From Alphaproteobacteria bacterium (GTDB taxonomy: Bacteria; Pseudomonadota; Alphaproteobacteria; JABAAW01; JAHZMA01): a stretch of DNA of 64,000 nt. Positions within the stretch are counted from its first letter, which is position 1. Each line of letters begins with the position of its first letter. This document shows, in pieces, positions 20,544 through 30,035 of the stretch. A program made the translations under genes and the position numbers. The notes beneath the pieces are model-generated. The model was not told where the DNA came from and did no database searches. It saw only the letters and a list, made by a program, of their open reading frames with translations. The stretch spans positions 130,283 to 194,282 of the forward strand of contig CBDBJL010000016.1 of NCBI GenBank assembly GCA_965206365.1, given 5' to 3'.

Positions 20544-21644
20544 TTATGCAGCTTCAGAGATAATCGATAAAATACGAGATTGGGCATTTAACTCTACTTT
20601 TCTTTCTATGGAAGCATAGTGGAATCCTGCAAAGCCAGCACCACCAGATGGGCTAGTGCTAAGGTTGCAAAAATCTAAATATTTGATGGCCTCTGCGCAT
20701 TCATCATCACTGATTGTCATAAAATAATCCGCATCCTCTGCCAAAGCTTGCAGAGCTAAATCAGAGGGCTCTTTGCAATCTAATCTGCCCATATTAGAGA
20801 TTTGATTGCCGACAGAAGTTTTCTTGCCCGCAAGAATGCTTGCTTGCAAACAAGGCGCAAAATCAGCCTCAACAATAATTATGATCATATCATCAGACCA
20901 AATTTTACGAAAATATTTCGCCATAGCAGAGGCAAGCCCGCCAACACCCGCTTGCAGGAAAACATGACTAGGTTCTTCGATCTGGCGGGTAATTTCATCG
21001 GCCAATGCCAAATAGCCTTCCATGATCATCTTACCACCATCATAGCCTTTCCATGAAGAATCAGATAGTAAAAACCAATTATTGTCATCGGCAGCTTGTT
21101 TTGCTCCTGCCAGCGAAGCTTCGTAATCATCGCCTTCGATCACCACAGTTGCGCCGTACTCTTCTAGCCTGGTTGCAAATGATTCAGGAACATTTCTTGA
21201 GAGATAAATTACAGCCTTGGCACCAAAAATTTTGGCACCCGCCGCGATTGAAAGCCCATGATTGCCTGCACTCGAGCAAATATAAGTTTCACCTTTTAAT
21301 ATTGTAGATAAATGTTCTTGATCCTTAATTGCATCACCAGCCCTTTCATAAGCATGGCGGGCAATAACATAGGCTGCACCTAAAGCCTTAAAACTGCCAA
21401 GCCGCATACGCGAACGCTCGTCCTTAAAGTATAAATTTTTAACATTGTAAGATTCTGCCAGTGTTTTTTGCTCACAAAGCGACGTTGGTTGAGCAATAGG
21501 GCAAAGGTTTAGCAGATAATTGACCAAAGTTGGGTCAGTAGATAAAACCCCATTCTCGCAATCATGATCAACTGGAAATGATTTTCCTCTGTAAGGGTTT
21601 GATATTATATTAATTGCAATATCTCCGATATTCATTACTACCAA
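20544..21644 (-). CDS. PLP-dependent fold-type-II enzyme, diaminopropionate ammonia-lyase / threonine-dehydratase-like
   Basis: KDERSRMRLGSFKALGAAY (PLP-lysine motif) and SAGNHG glycine loop. Confidence 0.6.
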   Translation of the reverse strand: MVVMNIGDIAINIISNPYRGKSFPVDHDCENGVLSTDPTLVNYLLNLCPIAQPTSLCEQKTLAESYNVKNLYFKDERSRMRLGSFKALGAAYVIARHAYERAGDAIKDQEHLSTILKGETYICSSAGNHGLSIAAGAKIFGAKAVIYLSRNVPESFATRLEEYGATVVIEGDDYEASLAGAKQAADDNNWFLLSDSSWKGYDGGKMIMEGYLALADEITRQIEEPSHVFLQAGVGGLASAMAKYFRKIWSDDMIIIIVEADFAPCLQASILAGKKTSVGNQISNMGRLDCKEPSDLALQALAEDADYFMTISDDECAEAIKYLDFCNLSTSPSGGAGFAGFHYASIERKVELNAQSRILSIISEAA

Positions 21645-22199
21645 AACAAGTGATTATATGATATTGTAATTTTAATTGCAATTGATTTCAATTCAATAAT
21701 GCATATATTATTCAACAATATCGCTTAATTCGCCCGTGGTTTTTGGGCTCCTAATTCTAGTATCAATCCAGAAATTTTGAAAAAAATAGTTGCTTATGAT
21801 GCAACTATGCCTTTAAAAACTTTATTCCGCGAGCAGCTACTGAAAGAATGTGGGTTTGTATCTATTGCAATTGATAAATTATGCCCCCGATGAGCCATGA
21901 GCGAGCTTTAAAATATTTTCCGTTGCCAATTCCCAAAAAACATTCCAGAAACCAAACCAAACCAAAATATTCTGGGTAAAAGGGAATATTTTTGATAATA
22001 TTCAAGTAATATTTGTGCCAGAATTGCCGTATTTCTGGTGGCAATTCATCTTTCGGGCGTAAATAATTTCCTATTGGCAAGATTGCCCCCCTAATATAAT
22101 CCGAGCATTGGATTTAGTCTAAGCAAATCGATCCCGTAAAATCATGGCAAAAATTATCGTGAAACAACAACGAAAACAAAGCTAAGCATAGAAAAGATT

Positions 22200-22356
22200 T
22201 ATGGAAATTCACCACAAAGCATTGAGCCTCTGCCCGGTAAACCAAGCAAAGGCCTAAATTATCTTAGGCGAACCTAAGAAATATCTTTCAGATGTATTAT
22301 AAAATACACCCTTACTATAGCCCTTAATCCATCCCAAACGAATTATGCTATACGAA
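22200..22356 (-). ncRNA. Candidate tracrRNA (tracr-1): long imperfect anti-repeat followed by two hairpins
   Basis: Minus strand 22353->22315 reads GUAUAGCAUAAUUCGUUUGGGAUGGAUUAAGGGCUAUAG, complementary to the crRNA repeat with a UU bulge after a 6-bp lower stem; followed by hairpins UGUAUU-UUAU-AAUACA (22293-22308) and CUUAGG-UUCG-CCUAAG (22263-22278); 3' end undefined. Confidence 0.55.
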
Positions 22357-22576
22357 ACCACAATATGTGCCAAAAACAAAAAAAGACCCACAATGCTAAC
22401 CAAAACCCATCATCAAAAACAAATTTAGAGACAGGCTCGTAATTTCATCGAACTACTAACGCCCTACTTTATCATAAATTCTAGAGTAAGACAAACCTTA
22501 TTTATCAGTTTTGTTGGAATAATCTTAACAACAAGGATAAAACATCAAATAACAAAGCATTGAGCCTCCGTAACTG

Positions 22577-22660
22577 AAAAAAAAGACTCAACTATACTTA
22601 GGCGAATCTAAGAGATATCTTTCAGATGTATTATAAAATACATATTTTCTATAGTTCCCG
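22577..22660 (-). ncRNA. Second tracrRNA-like module (tracr-2): 11-nt perfect anti-repeat at the 5' end, same hairpins, U8 terminator
   Basis: Minus strand reads GGGAACUAUAG (22659->22649, perfect complement of crRNA repeat nt 2-12), then UGUAUUUUAUAAUACA and CUUAGAUUCGCCUAAG hairpins, AGAUUC/GAGUCU stem, UUUUUUUU (22584->22577); candidate extended -10 TGTTAGAAT at 22674->22666 places the TSS at the anti-repeat. Confidence 0.4.
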
Positions 22661-22756
22661 CCGATATTCTAACATAATTTTTGGCATTTTTATTTTCTAA
22701 AAAATATTACAAAGACACCTATTAATAGATATCATCGGTGAATAAAAAGATGTAAT

Positions 22757-22764
22757 ATTGACAC
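22757..22764 (+). promoter_or_regulatory. Candidate extended -10 (TGTAATAT) for cas9
   Basis: TGn-TAATAT ~48 nt upstream of the cas9 ATG; SD AAGGAG at 22796-22801. Confidence 0.25.
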
Positions 22765-22811
22765 TTAATTGTGTATTTAAGGGGGATAAGGCGCAAAGGA
22801 GCTTCAAAGTA

Positions 22812-25800
22812 ATGGTAAAAAAACAACCCAGAAACCCTCAAAATTATATTTTAGGAATTGATGTTGGAGTCGGCTCGCTAGGCGTTGCCTTAATTGCAAT
22901 CGATGGGGATACGCCTAGAATTTTAAATGGTAGTTCGTTAATTTATCCCAGTGCAAGTGGAAATAGTGACAGGCGCACCCATAGGTTAGCGCGTAACTAC
23001 TTCCAAAATCGGACAAAACGTAAGAAATTGCTTCAGAAGAAACTAACAGAGTTTTTGCAATTACAAGGTGAAGGATATCGGATCGGGCAAACCCATATCA
23101 AACCCTATAACGCCGAAAGATTTCCCAAAGTTAAGAATAAAAAAAATAACTCTTGTGTGGCGTTACGCGCCATGGCTTTGGATGAACAACTAACTTTACC
23201 TGAATTATTTCGAGTTTTTATGCACCTTGCAACGCATCGCGGAGTCCGCCTTACCAAAGCAATCAAAGAGGCTGAGCAAAAAGAAACCGGTGTGCTGAAA
23301 CAAGCGATACAGGAATTGCAAGAGCAAATGCAAACAGCAGACAATACAGGAAAAATGATTCGCACTGTGGGTGAATATCTTGCCAAGCAAGAAAAAAAGG
23401 GTCAGGCTATAAAGTTGCGTCCAGATGCTTTTAATAAACGAGCTATTTTTCTACTCACGTGCGATGATTATCAAAGAGTTTGACCAGATTATTGCCAAGC
23501 AACAAGAATATTACCCTGAAATTTTTACACCGGAAAATATTCAACTTATAAAAGAAGGCTCTCTTAAAAAAACAATTGAAGGTAAAGAAAGAATAATTGG
23601 TTATGGGATTTTTTGTGAAAAAGGTGCGTATCAAAGCGCGATCGAAGAAAAAATTGGTTATTGTTGTTACCTTCCGGAAGCGGGGACCATAAGAGAGAAA
23701 CGAATTGCAATCGCTTCTAATTTGTTTCAAGAAAAGCGTTTGCTCGAACAAATTAATAATCTCCGTATTTATCAAGGTGCAAAAGCTGGCGGTGAAGCCG
23801 GGGATGGCAAATTAACTTTAGCGCAACGCGATCTTGTTTATGAAAACATGCTCGAGGAAAAAGAGGCGGTTAAGGGAAATAAAATTGGGAAATGGCTTAA
23901 TTTAGCCAGTAATTCTCGCCTTAATATTGATGCAAGTGGCAAAAAAAAATCCGAACAAGTGATCCAACCTCATGTAATTCTTGCCACAATCAAAAAAACC
24001 AAAAATTCTGAACTTTTTGCAACATGGCAGAGTTTAAGTGCTGAGGCGCAGGATTATGCAGTTAAATTATTGCATGATGAGGGGGAATTAGATGCAAATA
24101 TGAAAGCATGGGTAGAAGAATTTCCTGATTTTCCGCCCGATTGGATTGAAACATTACAAAATATTATTTTGCCACGAGGCTATGCGGCAACGGGCACCAC
24201 TGCCACTTCGAAATTGATTGCAGAATTACGCGCTGATGTGATTACTCATTACAAAGCTGAAATACGCGCTAAACTCAAACATCCTACATCTGAACCCACA
24301 GAAGATTATTTGCCATATTACGGAAGATTGCCCTCCTTAGAACATTATTGTCAGGGGGCAAGCAAGCATCCGGCCGAACCATTAGAAAAACAATTTGGTA
24401 AAATCCCCAATTCGGTCGTGCATCAATCACTCAATAAAATTCGCAAAATTCTCAACACCTATATTAAAGAATATGGTCCGCCACAAAAGATTCACCTCGA
24501 ACTTGCACGCGAGTTAAATAAATCACTTAAGGAACGTGAGAACGAGGATAAAAAAAATCAAAAAAATCAAAAAAAAAATACTAAATATAATGATAAAATC
24601 CTCACCTATAGGGACCGAACCTCGCGCAAATATCGACGCGCCTTAAAATTACATGAGTGGCAACTCCCTAAACAACAAAAAAAATTATACAAAGAGCAAA
24701 AATGTATTTGCCCGTATTCAGGAACAGAAATCAGCATTGATGATATTTTTACTGGCAAGGCCGAAATTGATCATATTTTGCCTTATTCTCAAACCATGCT
24801 CGATAATATTAGTAATTTGGTGTTATGCACAAAAGAAGCGAATTCGAAGAAGAAAAAGCAAACCCCTTACGAAGCTTTTTCTGGTGGCTATCCTGATGGA
24901 ACTGGTAGAACTTATGATGATATTCTCACAACGATTGCAGATTATCCAGAATATAAGAAGAAAAAATTTAATGAAGATGCGATGGCGCATTTTAAAAATA
25001 AAAATCTTTTCGCAACCAGATTTAAAACCGATACCCAGTATTTGGCAAAAGTGGTTCATAATTATTTAGGATGCTTAAAATTAAATCCTATCAACCAACA
25101 GCAAGATGAAAAGCATGAAAATAACCCTGAATCACAGCATGATGCTCAAGATAAAATCGACGGTGAAGTAAAGAAAAAAAGGATTATCTGTCTTTCCGGC
25201 GGTATTACCGCTGATCTGCGACATCATTGGGGCTTGGGCAATATCCTCCAAAATTTTGAACAAGATAGCCTCACCAGTGTCGGACGAGAAGAAATGGCTG
25301 ATAATATTAACAAAGATTTTTTGCAATATATCAAAACTAGACAAATCGATTTACAGAAACAGGCGAAAAAAAAGGTGCTCGATGAAGCTGAGCAAAAATT
25401 TCTCGCAATTAATCTTGCCGAACTTCAAACAAATCAGCGGGGCGACTGGGATGATTATGTTAAAAATATATTTAGGGATCGTGAAAATAAAGCAAAAAAG
25501 AATCGCCTGGATTATCGTCATCATTTCATTGATGCGATTGTGATCGCTTGTACCAATGCCTCGGAAGTAAATAGGCTTAATGCGGCAAATGCAAATTATC
25601 GAAACCAAAAAACCGAGAATACGCAAAGTTTTTACCAGCAAAAACAACAGCACCGAATCGAGCATTCAGGCGTTAAAAAACATCCCTTAAATTGGGTGAA
25701 TTTTTGCCAAGATGTTAAAGATTATTTGCGCGCTCATCCTAATTTAATCGTGCAAAATCCTAATTTCAACAGTGCATCGCGCCAGATCCATGAAGAAACT

Positions 25801-26823
25801 AATTATCGCAAAATTATTGATATTTATACTCAGAATAAAACCACACAAGCAGAAAATTATCTTCAATCTCTTGTATCCAGCCGACAATCTTTGGATAATT
25901 TAGTTGCAGAGAAAAGTTTTGATGCTTTGCTCCCAAAAAAAGAGGATTGGATGCAAACATTGCGCAAGAAAAACAGCATTTGTAAATCTCCGATCGGGGA
26001 TCGACCTCGATTTTCGCCGGAAGAATTGGAAATTGAAATTACAAAAATTACAGCGAAACTTGCAGTTCAGGCCGAAATCAAACAATTTTTAGAAGATAAA
26101 TTTCATGGAGCCAAGAAAGAAAAACGCGTTATTTATGAGGCAACAAAAGATAAGCTAGTAAAAGATAAAATCGTAAAAGGTGAACCCGAAGAAGAAAAAT
26201 TGGTAAAAACCTCTGTGCCAGAACAAATGGCATGGGCAATTACAGAATATAAAAACCGGAAAAGCAAAGGAGAAATTAACACAATATTTGGGCGCAAATA
26301 TTTCACAATCTATAAATATCTCACAGTGATTGAAATTAGAAATAAATCCCTTGAGACAGACTTAAAACAACAAAGACAAAATATCCCCACCCGCCCGCAA
26401 CGTGTGGTGGTAACCGGCAATAATTCGCATAGCGATATTTTCTACTATTACGATGACAATGGTGCCCGCCAGATTGGGTGGGAATGTATTGCCGTTATCG
26501 CTGTACGAAAAGCAGATTACCAACCCGCATGGCGGCAAAAATATCCTAAGGCGAAATTAATTGGGCAATTGCGCATTAATGATACGCTTCAAATTTGGAA
26601 CAATCCTGATCCCGAAGCTCCCCTGCGCAAAAGAATTTTGGTACGGGTACAGAAAATGTCGAAAGGATATATTAGTTTTTCGCACTTGCAACGTTCCAAA
26701 ACCGAAAATATGAGTGCTCCTTATCGGAAAGTTTCATCCATTGGTCTTTTTCAAGCTTTTGCACCCAAATTGGTCAAGCGTGATGTTACGGGCAAGGTTT
26801 ATTATCATCGTAAATTATATTAA
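22812..26823 (+). CDS. cas9: Cas9 (type II-C), ~1336 aa, interrupted by a +1 frameshift in a T5 tract at 23443-23447
   Basis: RuvC-I GIDVGVGSLGVALIA, Arg-rich bridge helix RRTHRLARNYFQNRTKRKK, RuvC-II KIHLELARE, HNH EIDHILPYSQTMLDNISNLVLCTKEANSKK, RuvC-III HHFIDAIVIACTN; ORFs 22758-23483 and 23425-26823 join seamlessly if one T is removed (..NKRAIF|YSRAMIIKEF..). Confidence 0.85.
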
Positions 26824-26836
26824 AGGAAGCTATTTT

Positions 26837-27748
26837 ATGTGGAGAATTTTGGATATTGGGCAAGATCATCGAAGCTTGTTGGTAAAAAATCATCAATTAG
26901 TGATTAAAAATAACACAGCATCTTCTAAAAATATTCTAGCAACTCTGAATTTTAACGATCTTCATGCCATTATTCTCCATGGTCATGGCATCTGGTTAAG
27001 TCGAAATGTGCTGGATCAGGCAGGTGAACATAATATTCCTGTGATTATTTGCAATGCCCAGCATATTCCCCAAACCATAACTCTGCCCGTAGTAGGGCAT
27101 TATCATTATCAGCAACGCGTTCATGGGCAAATTACTATTACACTTGCCCGACGTAAGGGTTTGTGGAAAAAAATTGTTCAAGCCAAAATCAAGGCACAAG
27201 CCTATTTGCTGAAATCTTATCAATTGCCCGAAGCCGATAGGCTGGAAGCCATGTTGGCAAAAGTTCTTGCTGGTGATGCGAATAATCACGAGGCCCAAGC
27301 AGCTCGTATCTATTGGCAGGCATTATTCGGCAGTGATTTTCGACGCAATATCGAACAACCAGGGCTAAATGCACATCTGAATTATGGTTATGCAATTTTA
27401 CGCGCATCGGTAGCGCGCTTTATTGTGGCATCGGGTTTATTACCCGCAATTGGGCTGAATCACCATAATAAGCTGAATCCATTTTGTTTTGTGGATGATG
27501 TTATGGAACCATTTCGCCCGTTAATTGATCGGTTGGTGCGTACGCATCATAAGCCATTTGCCAATCGGGTGACTCCTGAAAATAAAGCAATTTTAAGCGA
27601 TATTATCAATCACCAGCTCTATTATCGTGACGAAAATATTTCAGTGCAACATGCGGTTCAAAATTTATGCCATAGTTTTGCCCAGATTTTTTTAGGGGAA
27701 GAGAAAAATCTTGCCTTACCACCCATTATTTTTACCAATCAATTATAA
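26837..27748 (+). CDS. cas1: Cas1 integrase
   Basis: Conserved LNYGYAILRA and ...GLNHHNKLNPF... motifs; starts 14 nt after cas9 stop with SD AAGGAAG. Confidence 0.9.
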   Translation: MWRILDIGQDHRSLLVKNHQLVIKNNTASSKNILATLNFNDLHAIILHGHGIWLSRNVLDQAGEHNIPVIICNAQHIPQTITLPVVGHYHYQQRVHGQITITLARRKGLWKKIVQAKIKAQAYLLKSYQLPEADRLEAMLAKVLAGDANNHEAQAARIYWQALFGSDFRRNIEQPGLNAHLNYGYAILRASVARFIVASGLLPAIGLNHHNKLNPFCFVDDVMEPFRPLIDRLVRTHHKPFANRVTPENKAILSDIINHQLYYRDENISVQHAVQNLCHSFAQIFLGEEKNLALPPIIFTNQL

Positions 27749-27749
27749 T

Positions 27750-28076
27750 ATGCTATCGGGATATAAAACAATGTGGCTATTTATCATGTTTGATTTGCCA
27801 ACTAGCAATCGGGCTGAAGCCCGTAGTGCGAATCAGTTTAGAAATCACCTGTTACAAGAAGGTTATATTATGAAACAATTTTCTGTTTATATGCGTTATT
27901 TTGACAGTAAAAATCGCGCAAATTCGTCGCTTAGCCGAATTCAGCAGAAAATTCCACAACAAGGTATGGTGAGTGCATTATTTGTTACGGATCGACAATT
28001 TGGGCAAATTCAGAATTTTTATGGCAAAAAACCCAAAAAAAACGACGAGAAACCGACCCAATTACTGTTATTATAG
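27750..28076 (+). CDS. cas2: Cas2
   Basis: MLSGYKTMWLFIMFDLP... N-terminus typical of type II Cas2; ~108 aa; immediately precedes the array. Confidence 0.85.
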   Translation: MLSGYKTMWLFIMFDLPTSNRAEARSANQFRNHLLQEGYIMKQFSVYMRYFDSKNRANSSLSRIQQKIPQQGMVSALFVTDRQFGQIQNFYGKKPKKNDEKPTQLLLL

Positions 28077-28148
28077 GGGAATTATGTGCATTTTTTACAC
28101 GAATAAATCCCTGGAAACCATTTCATATCAAGGGTTTCCAGGGATGCT

Positions 28149-28910
28149 AGTATAGCATACTTCGTTTGGGATGGGAACTATAGCATTATTTTCAAAAGCC
28201 GATATTCCATAATAAGTATAGCATACTTCGTTTGGGATGGGAACTATAGCTACCAATACGTTGCATTTGCCCAAGAAATCAGTATAGCATACTTCGTTTG
28301 GGATGGGAACTATAGCTTGCGGCTCGTATTTTGGTAGAACAATTAAAGTATAGCATACTTCGTTTGGGATGGGAACTATAGCAAGATAATCCAAAAATCC
28401 ATGTTAAAATCAAGTATAGCATACTTCGTTTGGGATGGGAACTATAGCATCAACCATTCAATCACTGCAGCAAAGTCAAGTATAGCATACTTCGTTTGGG
28501 ATGGGAACTATAGCTAGCAACAGTGCCAGCAATGGTAAAACGCAAGTATAGCATACTTCGTTTGGGATGGGAACTATAGCAAAATATGATCAAGGGGTTC
28601 GTGACGTTTAAGTATAGCATACTTCGTTTGGGATGGGAACTATAGCATCAAACAGCAACAAGCTTGGCAAATAACTAGTATAGCATACTTCGTTTGGGAT
28701 GGGAACTATAGCCAACGCGGGTTTCGCCGTAAGCTTGCTTGGAGTATAGCATACTTCGTTTGGGATGGGAACTATAGCCAACAGGCAAATGCAAGTTCGA
28801 CATTGTTGAGTATAGCATACTTCGTTTGGGATGGGAACTATAGCTAGCAACAGTGCCAGCAATGGTAAAACGCAAGTATAGCATACTTCGTTTGGGATGG
28901 GAACTATAGC
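28149..28910 (-). CRISPR. CRISPR array: 12 identical 36-nt repeats (AGTATAGCATACTTCGTTTGGGATGGGAACTATAGC on +), 11 spacers of 30 nt; transcription inferred on the minus strand
   Basis: Exact 66-nt periodicity, repeats start at 28149+66n; minus-orientation repeat GCTATAGTTCCCATCCCAAACGAAGTATGCTATACT ends in an extended -10 (TGcTATACT), like the Neisseria II-C repeat promoter; spacers 6 and 11 identical. Confidence 0.95.
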
Positions 28911-29443
28911 TCGTTTACGGTAATATCGTAAAATGGTTCTATGCGTTCTAGTTTTTTAGTCCTTTCTTGGGGGTTAATTTTACCGTCTCCGTCTTCATCG
29001 CCTTTTAAAAAGGCTTCTTGTAGTGCTTCATGGGCACTGCAATCAACCGCTTGTGGGTCAAAATTCCAAAAGCGGTCGCGTAAATGTTTTTTTATTAAAG
29101 CTGATACTGTCCTTAGCTCGCAGGTGATGTTGGTTAGATGCTGAACGCACGTATCGCAACCAACAACACCCGATAGGCTTGCCACTGTCCCCGTAACCTC
29201 TGCCATACCGTCAAGATCCGCAACAGTTTCAGTGATCCCGGCTTCGATATCTCTAAATGTAGAGGATTGTTGCCGTGCAACATTGGTAAGGTTAATGCCG
29301 TTATTAGCAATAGATAATAAGTGTGCTGTATTTGCTGGGTTAGCATAAGCTTTAGCTATTTCATAAAGTGGTTCACCATAGCGCAAGGTAATGAAGGATA
29401 AGATAATGGCAAGATAAAGCGATGAATGGTTGGGCTTTTCCAT
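28904..29443 (-). CDS. Hypothetical protein with canonical EF-hand Ca-binding loop (DEDGDGKINPQE)
   Basis: 12-residue EF-hand loop with D1,D3,D5,G6,I8,E12; ORF terminates 2 codons inside the last CRISPR repeat. Confidence 0.4.
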   Translation of the reverse strand: MEKPNHSSLYLAIILSFITLRYGEPLYEIAKAYANPANTAHLLSIANNGINLTNVARQQSSTFRDIEAGITETVADLDGMAEVTGTVASLSGVVGCDTCVQHLTNITCELRTVSALIKKHLRDRFWNFDPQAVDCSAHEALQEAFLKGDEDGDGKINPQERTKKLERIEPFYDITVNEL

Positions 29444-29474
29444 GATTAAAGAGTCTTTTTATGTGGGTTTTATT

Positions 29475-30035
29475 TTATTTGGGGTTAATTACTTTATTAT
29501 AAATTTTTAAATATTTATGTCCGTTTGTAATTTCAGAATTTAACAAACAATTATTTTGATCAAAAACATAGATTGCTTTTTTTTCACCATCTGCTGTTCC
29601 TGCTGTACCAATAATTAATGCGCTAGTGCCGTTGCTTTTGGTGATTTGATTAGCAACAGCAAGAGCCGCGCCTTTGCTTACATCTAACGTCTTGAACGGA
29701 TTAAAATCAGACGCAACCTCTGCTTTAGACTGATATTGCTTGCAACCCTCTGATGCTTGCGCATTAACCATAATTAAAAAGGTAATGCCAGTAATCATGA
29801 AAATTATGGCTACAAAACGATAGATAACATTCATTACTTTGGTAATGCCAGTTTCATCCCTATAGGCTTTGCAAATTAGCGGGTGGATAATATTTTCGGT
29901 GATTACATATCGGATTCTTTTAAATACAAAACTGCCTGTATTAAGCAAAAAAATGCCAAAATTACATAAAATGATATTCATAGCTTTTGTATCAAGCTGG
30001 TTGCCGATAAGTAGTCTTTTGGTAAGGTTATTCAT
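29475..30035 (-). CDS. Hypothetical small secreted/membrane protein (possibly VirB5-like by position)
   Basis: Internal start MNVIYRFVAIIFMITGITFLIMVNAQA|SEGCKQY gives a Sec-type signal; lies immediately downstream of the virB4 fragment. Confidence 0.3.
   Translation of the reverse strand: MNNLTKRLLIGNQLDTKAMNIILCNFGIFLLNTGSFVFKRIRYVITENIIHPLICKAYRDETGITKVMNVIYRFVAIIFMITGITFLIMVNAQASEGCKQYQSKAEVASDFNPFKTLDVSKGAALAVANQITKSNGTSALIIGTAGTADGEKKAIYVFDQNNCLLNSEITNGHKYLKIYNKVINPK

What the first reader, a model, noticed from the sequence alone, without database searches (positions are those of the whole stretch)
22553..22680. Second, compact tracrRNA-like gene with only an 11-nt perfect anti-repeat, its own promoter and a U8 terminator, next to the cas9 promoter
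About 340 bp nearer cas9, a diverged copy of the tracr module (conserved ...CUUAGRUUCGCCUAAG..., UGUAUUUUAUAAUACA and the 3' element GAGGCUCAAUGCUUUG) carries GGGAACUAUAG. This is perfectly complementary to repeat nt 2-12 with no bulge. It lies directly downstream of a good extended -10 (TGTTAGAAT, minus strand 22674->22666). It is followed by an AGAUUC/GAGUCU stem and UUUUUUUU (22584->22577), giving an ~84-nt RNA. An 11-12-nt repeat:anti-repeat duplex is the length used in engineered sgRNAs, so this short form could be the main Cas9-loading tracrRNA, a regulatory variant, or a decaying duplicate. Two tracrRNA paralogues with different duplex lengths in one locus are unusual.
Basis: partly seen in the sequence, partly recalled or inferred. 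Interest (0 to 1): 0.7.

Follow-up and report, generated by a model that had tools for sequence, protein, structure and literature searches.

The report
Short second tracrRNA copy beside cas9
A type II-C CRISPR-Cas9 locus carries two copies of the helper RNA gene (tracrRNA), and the short copy next to cas9 sits where six related loci keep their only tracrRNA; it is probably a still-usable trimmed version, but the sequence alone cannot exclude a decaying relic.

Summary
On the minus strand, 22659->22649 reads GGGAACTATAG. This is a perfect complement of nt 2-12 of the CRISPR repeat and the only such match outside the array. An extended -10 (TGTTAGAAT, 22674->22666) places the start site at about 22659. 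A ~105-nt copy of the long tracrRNA's body follows, and it contains a U8 run (22584->22577).

New points:
- Six related Cas9 loci each have one tracrRNA, divergent from cas9 and touching its promoter. The short copy (t2) occupies that position, and its 5' flank is homologous to that of the closest relative. The long copy (t1, 22353->22214) is therefore the extra one.
- The closest relative's only tracrRNA has just a 16-18-nt bulge-less anti-repeat, so short duplexes occur in this clade.
- t2 keeps the clade's hairpin 1 / GAAAGAU / hairpin 2 plan, but every helix is weaker than in t1 (core z -0.5 against -2.9).
- Differences between t1 and t2 are clustered (P=0.0035).
- A 17-nt element identical in both copies lies beyond the U8. 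This argues against a clean 84-nt RNA.
- cas9 carries a 1-nt frameshift.

Verdict: a 5'-trimmed tracrRNA paralogue that is likely transcribed. I put a functional cofactor at about 0.42, a relic at about 0.33 and a regulator at about 0.13. It is a new variant of a known kind, of moderate interest.

The parts
22666..22674 (-). Extended -10 of the short tracrRNA gene t2 (TGTTAGAAT), with no recognisable -35. Predicted +1 is about 22659.
   Evidence: Read directly. The motif TG.TA.AAT occurs 22 times in 128 kb of both strands. Not flagged by the sigma-70 scan, which needs a -35.
22649..22659 (-). t2 anti-repeat GGGAACUAUAG, a perfect complement of crRNA repeat nt 2-12.
   Evidence: Only match outside the array. 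3 of 2000 shuffles of the 56-nt stretch score as well. Duplex with the repeat -18.9 kcal/mol.
22597..22648 (-). t2 scaffold: A-rich linker, hairpin 1 (AUGUAUU-UUAU-AAUACAU, 22643->22626), CUGAAAGAU motif, hairpin 2 (CUUAG-AUUCGC-CUAAG, 22612->22597).
   Evidence: Homologous to t1. Same hairpin 1 / GAAAGAU / hairpin 2 topology as t1 and the tracrRNA of L011. Weaker than t1: -6.6 against -13.8 kcal/mol.
22577..22609 (-). Alternative hairpin (AGAUUCG.CUA-AGUA-UAG.UGAGUCU, 22609->22584) followed by the U8 run (22584->22577). Candidate weak intrinsic terminator giving an RNA of about 83 nt.
   Evidence: Fold -6.7 kcal/mol. T8 runs occur 25 times in 128 kb. Not flagged by the terminator scan. Overlaps hairpin 2.
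22552..22568 (-). 3' element GAGGCUCAAUGCUUUGU, 17/17 identical to t1 22230->22214. It forms the right arm plus tail of hairpin 3, which is degenerate in t2 (-8.5 kcal/mol).
22214..22373 (-). Long tracrRNA gene t1. Promoter-like TTGGCA-17-TAGCAT (22373->22345). Anti-repeat 22353->22315 (24 pairs with a 5-nt AUUAA bulge and two G.U). Hairpin 1, hairpin 2 (CUUAGG-UUCG-CCUAAG, 22278->22263), a 13-bp hairpin 3 (22254->22225) and a tail.
   Evidence: Promoter scan. Repeat alignment, 0 of 2000 shuffles score as well. Fold z -4.5. Duplex -34.6 kcal/mol.
22681..22708 (+). Predicted cas9 promoter (TTGGCA-16-AATATT), back to back with the t2 promoter and overlapping it. The sequence around it is conserved in L001.
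   Evidence: Promoter scan. Alignment with the L001 upstream region.
22812..26823 (+). cas9, about 1336 codons, interrupted by a single-nucleotide frameshift between 23421 and 23445.
   Evidence: Translations. tblastn of P0002: residues 15-193 in frame 1, residues 202-1254 in frame 2. TIGR01865 on both pieces.
26714..28076 (+). cas1 (type II, NMENI model) and cas2. There is no csn2 or cas4, so the layout is type II-C.
28149..28910 (-). CRISPR array: 12 identical 36-nt repeats and 30-nt spacers. The crRNA sense is the minus strand. Each repeat ends in an extended -10-like TGCTATACT.

Best explanation
t2 is a real tracrRNA gene, not a chance match. It is the positional orthologue of the single tracrRNA that related type II-C loci keep back to back with the cas9 promoter. 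In this lineage it has been trimmed at the 5' end to an 11-nt anti-repeat, and a paralogue (t1) with a full-length bulged anti-repeat lies 334 bp further out.

Most likely mechanism (inferred, not shown):
1. RNA polymerase starts at about G22659 from the extended -10.
2. The RNA begins directly with GGGAACUAUAG.
3. It carries the clade's Cas9-binding plan: A-rich linker, hairpin 1, GAAAGAU, hairpin 2.
4. It ends partly at the U8 (about 83 nt) and partly after the shared 3' element (about 110 nt).
5. It pairs with the first 12 nt of the repeat part of crRNAs. These are made from promoters inside the repeats, so they do not need RNase III.
6. It loads them into Cas9 like a natural minimal tracrRNA.

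It would be redundant with, or auxiliary to, t1. Only t1 can form the long duplex that RNase III could cut. t2 appears to be under relaxed constraint, since all its helices are weakened.
For: - Position. The single tracrRNAs of L001, L002, L008, L010, L011 and L012 are all divergent from cas9 and directly beside its start. The t2 5' flank aligns with the L001 tracrRNA 5' flank (score 30 against shuffle mean 19.6; 9 of 1000 shuffles reach it). The t1 flank does not.
- Precedent for a short, bulge-less anti-repeat. L001 has 46% Cas9 identity, a near-identical repeat and an array of about 40 repeats. Its only anti-repeat is TTGGGATGGAAGCTATAG, 18 nt.
- Matching of anti-repeat and repeat. L001 has GGAAGC in both, and the window has GGGAAC in both the repeat and t2.
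- Signals of a transcription unit on the correct strand. The extended -10 lies 7 nt before the anti-repeat and a T8 lies 65 nt after it. Both motifs are rare in the window: 22 and 25 occurrences per 128 kb.
- Scaffold topology. Hairpin 1, GAAAGAU and hairpin 2 are shared with t1 and L011. In L011 both hairpins have different sequences but the same pairing.
- Non-uniform divergence. Differences between t1 and t2 are clustered, with identical runs of 28 and 17 nt (permutation P=0.0035), while the flanks are not alignable. This is not uniform neutral decay.
- Stability. The 11-bp duplex is thermodynamically stable (-18.9 kcal/mol).
Against: - Every structural element of t2 is weaker than in t1. 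Hairpin 2 is -3.2 against -7.9 kcal/mol; its loop-closing G-C has become A x C. The base of hairpin 1 has lost a pair. Hairpin 3 is -8.5 against -20.6 kcal/mol and has a 5-nt deletion.
- t2 does not fold better than shuffled sequence (z -0.7 and -0.5), whereas t1 does (z -4.5 and -2.9).
- The clustered identity could come from gene conversion between copies 334 bp apart.
- The terminator hairpin before the U8 is weak and destroys hairpin 2.
- The 17-nt element beyond the U8 is unexplained if the RNA ends at the U8.
- No close relative exists, so conservation of t2 could not be tested.
- There are no expression data.
- cas9 is frameshifted in this assembly, so the whole locus may have been inactivated recently.
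Confidence: 0.42

Rival explanations
1. Decaying relic. After t1 arose, or took over, the ancestral tracrRNA next to cas9 became redundant and is eroding. It has lost the distal anti-repeat, its hairpins are weakening and the left arm of hairpin 3 has mutated into a U-run. It may still be transcribed but no longer contributes to Cas9 function.
For: - All differences from t1 destabilise helices.
- Fold z-scores are indistinguishable from shuffles.
- A 5-nt deletion lies in hairpin 3.
- The distal anti-repeat is gone.
- cas9 is frameshifted, which suggests a locus drifting out of use.
- With d of about 0.17, an 11-nt stretch stays intact by chance about 13% of the time (my calculation).
Against: - The differences are clustered, not uniform (P=0.0035).
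- The GGGAA of the anti-repeat cannot come from conversion by t1, which has GGG-C, yet it matches the repeat perfectly.
- A rare extended -10 sits exactly at the anti-repeat.
- The array repeats are all identical, and apart from one indel the cas9 reading frame is intact over about 1330 codons. The locus is therefore not old debris.
Confidence: 0.33
2. Regulator rather than cofactor. t2 could titrate Cas9 into complexes that pair poorly with crRNA, acting as a decoy that tunes the free or active Cas9 pool. Alternatively its promoter, which overlaps the cas9 promoter back to back, could modulate cas9 transcription by competing for polymerase.
For: - The t2 -10 (22666-22671) and the predicted cas9 -35 (22681-22686) lie within 15 bp on opposite strands.
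- The scaffold is retained but the anti-repeat is minimal.
- Precedents exist for RNA-level control of Cas9. One is tracr-L, reported also for II-C. Another is sequestration of Cas9 by compact phage guide RNAs (bioRxiv 10.64898/2026.06.01.729453).
Against: - There is no repeat-like (crRNA-sense) segment on the tracrRNA strand that could fold back on an anti-repeat, so the tracr-L and scaRNA layout is absent.
- Related loci have the same back-to-back promoter arrangement with an ordinary single tracrRNA, so the arrangement itself is not special.
- No target site was identified.
Confidence: 0.13
3. t2 is not an independent RNA. It is the 5' part of a long precursor that reads through the weak U8 into t1 (a tandem tracrRNA transcript), or t1 depends on the t2 promoter.
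For: - The hairpin before the U8 is weak and the terminator scan did not flag it.
- No terminator was found between the two copies in 22374-22551 (read directly).
- The 17-nt element after the U8 is perfectly conserved.
Against: - t1 has its own promoter-like site, TTGGCA-17-TAGCAT.
- Eight consecutive U after a 10-pair hairpin usually gives at least partial termination (general knowledge of intrinsic terminators).
Confidence: 0.1

Closest known systems
Canonical type II-C tracrRNA, such as that of Neisseria meningitidis and the single tracrRNAs of the related loci fetched here (L001, L008, L010, L011, L012)
   Same: - An anti-repeat complementary to the 5' part of the repeat.
- Encoded divergently from cas9 beside its promoter.
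- An A-rich linker, small hairpin(s) with a GAAAGAU-like motif, and a terminal hairpin with a U-run.
- crRNAs made from promoters inside the repeats. The TGCTATACT at the repeat end was read directly here; the Neisseria precedent is from my own knowledge of Zhang et al. 2013.
   Different: - The anti-repeat is only 11 nt and sits at the very 5' end. Relatives have 16-36 nt.
- There are two copies in one locus.
- The helices are unusually weak, and the terminator is not the conserved terminal hairpin.
Loci reported with a second or alternative tracrRNA or anti-repeat
   Same: More than one anti-repeat-bearing candidate in one type II locus. Chylinski et al. 2013 (PMC3737331) describe two potential anti-repeats in Lactobacillus gasseri. 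Dooley et al. [quoted passage not shown]
   Different: Those cases are anti-repeats at different places in the locus (upstream of cas9, between cas9 and cas1, near the array). As far as I read, they are not described as same-strand tandem paralogues that share about 105 nt of scaffold but differ three-fold in duplex length.
Engineered single-guide RNA with a truncated repeat:anti-repeat duplex
   Same: The usable duplex is about 11-12 bp. This is the length kept in minimal sgRNA designs (my own knowledge of Jinek et al. 2012 and later scaffolds).
   Different: In an sgRNA the two strands are joined by a loop, so pairing is intramolecular. Here an 11-bp duplex would have to form in trans.
tracr-L (natural single guide that represses the cas9 promoter) and scaRNA
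   Same: An extra CRISPR-derived small RNA gene beside the cas9 promoter. tracr-L has been predicted in II-C loci too (bioRxiv 10.64898/2026.06.01.729453).
   Different: tracr-L needs a repeat-like segment plus a short guide upstream of the anti-repeat, and scaRNA is in crRNA sense. Neither is present: the best repeat-like match on the tracrRNA strand is at chance level.

Membership tests
tracrRNA (type II CRISPR-Cas) | Anti-repeat complementary to the CRISPR repeat of the same locus | tested here: met
   11/11 complementarity to repeat nt 2-12. It is the only such site outside the array and the duplex is -18.9 kcal/mol. It is much shorter than usual.
tracrRNA (type II CRISPR-Cas) | Encoded within a type II locus (cas9, cas1, cas2, array), on the strand that allows pairing with the transcribed crRNA | tested here: met
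   The cas genes were confirmed. t1, t2 and the repeat-internal -10 are all on the minus strand. Related loci have the same geometry. The crRNA strand is inferred, not measured.
tracrRNA (type II CRISPR-Cas) | Cas9-binding scaffold downstream of the anti-repeat (linker/nexus and hairpins) like that of related functional tracrRNAs | tested here: inconclusive
   The hairpin 1 / GAAAGAU / hairpin 2 topology is the same as in t1 and L011, and the 58-nt core CTATAG..CCTAAG differs from t1 at 6 positions (about 90% identity, from the alignment). However, one pair is broken in each hairpin and the fold is not better than shuffles (z -0.5).
tracrRNA (type II CRISPR-Cas) | Own promoter and terminator | tested here: inconclusive
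   An extended -10 sits at the right distance and a U8 follows a 10-pair hairpin of -6.7 kcal/mol. Neither was flagged by the consensus scans.
tracrRNA (type II CRISPR-Cas) | Expressed, bound by Cas9, and required or sufficient for interference | not testable with these tools
   No transcriptome or biochemistry is available. No close strain exists for a conservation test.
Rfam tracrRNA families | Match to a curated covariance model | tested here: not met
   No tracrRNA family matched 21500-29500 even at E<=10. t1 did not match either, so the models do not cover this clade.
tracr-L / natural single-guide autorepressor | Repeat-like segment and short guide upstream of the anti-repeat on the same RNA | tested here: not met
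   The best alignment of the crRNA-sense repeat to the minus strand 22860->21900 scores 17, against a shuffle mean of 16.6.
tracr-L / natural single-guide autorepressor | Guide matching the cas9 promoter next to a PAM | not tested
   No guide segment could be defined and the PAM is unknown.
scaRNA | Degenerate repeat in crRNA sense that pairs with the tracrRNA | tested here: not met
   t2 carries the anti-repeat sense, the same as t1.

The most novel reading that the evidence does not exclude
The two tracrRNA paralogues have divided the work. t1, with its long bulged anti-repeat, would serve RNase III-dependent processing or long-duplex functions. t2 would be a naturally minimised tracrRNA that starts exactly at an 11-nt anti-repeat. 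It would either load repeat-promoter-derived crRNAs into Cas9 without processing, or act as a titrating partner that sets how much Cas9 is guide-free. That would link to the reported role of guide-free Cas9 in spacer acquisition in II-C systems (PMC12477760).
Probability: 0.12. Interest if true: 0.65.

Novelty: new variant of a known kind. Interest (0 to 1): 0.4.

Why it matters
If t2 is active, nature has arrived at the minimal 11-12-bp repeat:anti-repeat duplex used in engineered guides, but working in trans. It would also show that a Cas9 locus can carry two tracrRNAs of different duplex length. That would bear on three questions: how tracrRNAs evolve (here by erosion of the distal anti-repeat into a promoter), how far the duplex can shrink, and whether tracrRNA dosage or type tunes Cas9. 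It could also give a compact scaffold for this little-studied alphaproteobacterial Cas9 clade. If t2 is a relic, the locus is simply a snapshot of tracrRNA turnover.

Tried and rejected
- Close relatives for a conservation test: none found. The nearest Cas9 is 46% identical. The repeat-pattern scan of genome contigs found only L001's contig and one other MAG with an L001-type array. The metagenome scan gave one chance hit, L007. Two viral scans gave nothing.
- Look-ups of P0001 and P0004 failed. The cluster look-up gave no name for the source genome.
- Rfam gave no tracrRNA match for either copy.
- Simple tandem duplication is rejected. Only about 105 nt (CTATAG..GCTTTGT) is shared, the flanks are not alignable, and the truncated copy is on the wrong side for that model.
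- The tracr-L/scaRNA layout is rejected.
- The tracrRNA body is not a dispersed genomic repeat. Its motifs occur only in the two copies.
- A MAFFT alignment of tracrRNA scaffolds across relatives was not structurally meaningful, so no covariance model or pair count was made. The hairpin comparison rests on individual folds.
- Resemblance between the t2 promoter region (ATGCCAAAAATTATGTTAGAAT) and the 3' part of the repeat, or the distal anti-repeat (TGGGAT -> TAGAAT), is suggestive but at chance level.

Full report
**Locus.** The window holds a type II-C CRISPR-Cas locus.
- cas9 is on the + strand. Its ATG is at 22812 and an AAGGAG lies 12 nt upstream. The gene matches TIGR01865.
- cas1 (type II NMENI model) and cas2 follow.
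- A 12-repeat array lies at 28149-28910, with 36-nt repeats and 30-nt spacers.
- Read on the minus strand the repeat is GCTATAGTTCCCATCCCAAACGAAGTATGCTATACT. Its 3' end is an extended -10-like TGCTATACT. That is the arrangement known from Neisseria meningitidis, where each repeat drives its own crRNA (my knowledge of Zhang et al. 2013). The crRNA sense is therefore the minus strand, the same strand as both tracrRNA candidates.

**Observation.**
- GGGAACTATAG (22659->22649, minus) is the only copy of this 11-mer outside the array. There are 13 hits in all, 12 of them array repeats, against 0.39 expected. It complements repeat nt 2-12.
- TGTTAGAAT (22674->22666) puts a start site at about G22659, the first base of the anti-repeat.
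- The copy of the tracrRNA module is real. Local alignment bounds it to 22654->22552 against 22320->22214, from CTATAG to GCTTTGT, with 18 difference events in 104 columns.
- The U8 lies at 22584->22577.
- TG.TA.AAT occurs 22 times and T8 runs 25 times in 128 kb of both strands. Finding both on the correct strand around the anti-repeat is unlikely by chance.

**The long copy, t1.**
- It has a promoter-like TTGGCA-17-TAGCAT (22373->22345).
- Its anti-repeat (22353->22315) forms 24 pairs with the repeat, with a 5-nt AUUAA bulge and two G.U pairs (-34.6 kcal/mol).
- It has hairpin 1, a CUGAAAGAU motif, a UUCG-capped hairpin 2 and a 13-bp hairpin 3 (-20.6 kcal/mol).
- It folds far better than shuffles (z -4.5).

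**Comparative evidence.** The Cas9 is isolated. The best relative, P0002, is 46% identical. No closer genome was found in the genome, metagenome or viral collections, so conservation of t2 cannot be tested.

I read six related loci: L001, L002, L008/L009, L010, L011 and L012.
- Each has exactly one tracrRNA. It is on the strand opposite cas9 and directly beside the cas9 start.
- The three that were scanned (L001, L008, L010) end in a canonical terminator.
- L001 and L008/L009 have repeats nearly identical to the window's.
- The sequence upstream of t2, which is the cas9 promoter region, aligns with the sequence upstream of L001's tracrRNA (score 30 against a shuffle mean of 19.6; 9 of 1000 shuffles reach it). 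The sequence upstream of t1 does not.
- The distances from the conserved TGTAATATT to the end of CTATAG are 63 nt (window t2) and 68 nt (L001).

t2 is therefore the positional orthologue of the clade's single tracrRNA, and t1 is the additional gene.

L001's only anti-repeat is 18 nt, perfect and bulge-less (TTGGGATGGAAGCTATAG). Its likely start site leaves 16-18 nt, and its array has about 40 repeats. A short duplex is thus tolerated in this clade. L001 has GGAAGC in both repeat and tracrRNA, whereas the window has GGGAAC in both repeat and t2. The t2 anti-repeat therefore tracks its own repeat.

**Scaffold.** L011's tracrRNA reads CUACAG UAAG ACUGUA-GAAA-UACAGU CGAAAGAU UAGA GGGGGC-UCCG-GCCCCC. 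It folds into two hairpins (z -5.0).
- t1 and t2 fold into the same two-hairpin plan with quite different helix sequences, so the plan is conserved through fully changed pairs.
- t2 keeps it in weakened form. The core is -6.6 against -13.8 kcal/mol. Hairpin 2 has lost its loop-closing G-C (-3.2 against -7.9). Hairpin 3 has a 5-nt deletion (-8.5 against -20.6). The fold z-scores are -0.5 and -0.7.

**3' end.** The U8 corresponds to the left arm of t1's hairpin 3 (CUUUGCUUGG -> CUUUUUUUUC).
- It is preceded by an alternative 10-pair hairpin (-6.7 kcal/mol) that overlaps hairpin 2.
- The terminator scan did not call it.
- The 17 nt after it are 100% identical in the two copies. In t2 they can still pair with UUGAGUCUUU.

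**Selection or decay.**
- Differences between t1 and t2 are clustered, with identical runs of 28 and 17 nt (P=0.0035 by permutation), and the flanks are unalignable.
- This argues against uniform neutral decay. Gene conversion between copies 334 bp apart could produce the same pattern.
- Conversion by t1 cannot explain the GGGAA of the anti-repeat, because t1 has GGG-C.
- All of t2's changes weaken structure, as expected under relaxed constraint.

**Regulatory layouts.** No crRNA-sense repeat-like segment lies on the tracrRNA strand, so a tracr-L or scaRNA design is not present. The t2 and cas9 promoters overlap back to back, but relatives with an ordinary single tracrRNA share that arrangement.

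**Literature.**
- Two potential anti-repeats in one locus (Lactobacillus gasseri) and 'a second tracrRNA' have been mentioned before (PMC3737331; bioRxiv 10.1101/2020.09.02.279885).
- tracr-L has been predicted in II-C loci (bioRxiv 10.64898/2026.06.01.729453).
- In the papers I read I found no description of same-strand paralogues that share a scaffold but differ three-fold in duplex length.

**Caveat on the whole locus.** cas9 has a single extra nucleotide between 23421 and 23445. P0002 residues 15-193 align in frame 1 and residues 202-1254 in frame 2. The rest of the roughly 1330 codons is open and all 12 repeats are identical. This is either an assembly error or a very recent inactivation.

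**Verdict.** t2 is a genuine, 5'-trimmed tracrRNA paralogue at the ancestral position and is probably transcribed. My estimates are: working cofactor, redundant with t1, 0.42; relic, 0.33; regulator or decoy, 0.13; part of a read-through precursor, 0.10. It is a new variant of a known kind, of moderate interest.

Noticed in passing
window 23421-23445: cas9 is split into two reading frames by one extra nucleotide. The homologue P0002 aligns in frame 1 up to 23420 and in frame 2 from 23446. The public protein record P0001 (1119 aa) starts after the break, so the deposited assembly has the frameshift too. It is either an assembly error in a run of T or A, or a very recent inactivation.
   Followed up: partly
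window 28479-28580 and 28809-28910: A 102-nt stretch of the array (repeat-spacer-repeat) is duplicated at 100% identity, so one spacer (TGCGTTTTACCATTGCTGGCACTGTTGCTA on the minus strand) occurs twice. All 12 repeats are identical, including both terminal ones.
   Followed up: no
window 28904-29443 (minus): A 179-aa ORF with no NCBIfam match ends with its stop codon (TAG, 28906->28904) inside the first repeat of the array. There is therefore no non-coding leader on that side, which fits repeat-internal promoters.
   Followed up: no
window 22144-22157 and 22674-22687: A 14-nt inverted repeat (ATGGCAAAAATTAT / ATAATTTTTGGCAT, 13 of 14 complementary) brackets the whole region holding both tracrRNA copies. 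TTTTTGGCA also occurs at both the t1 promoter (minus) and the cas9 promoter (plus). This may be chance in AT-rich DNA.
   Followed up: no
window 22590-22596 and 22650-22656 (minus): t2 contains UAUAGUU just before the U8. It is complementary to the AACUAUA of t2's own anti-repeat and resembles the start of the crRNA repeat. t1 has no equivalent. It could sequester the anti-repeat, but the minimum-energy fold does not use it.
   Followed up: partly
window 28088-28165: A strong palindromic hairpin (CCCTGGAAACC...GGTTTCCAGGG) lies between cas2 and the array. It is a likely bidirectional terminator. It produced only spurious weak microRNA hits in Rfam.
   Followed up: no
L003 2907-3999 and L004 632-667 (contig CBDBHZ010000005.1): Another alphaproteobacterial MAG has an L001-type array of about 17 repeats. 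It also has a lone full repeat about 4.6 kb away, beside a giant surface-protein-like gene similar to the one flanking L001's tracrRNA. No cas9 was evident in the first 16 kb. This may be an orphan or rearranged locus.
   Followed up: no
L008 2870-2900; L001 9925-9960; window 22700-22712: A TGTAATATT(AC)...TTTAAA motif recurs in the cas9/tracrRNA divergent promoter region of three loci. It may be the cas9 -10 region or an operator.
   Followed up: partly
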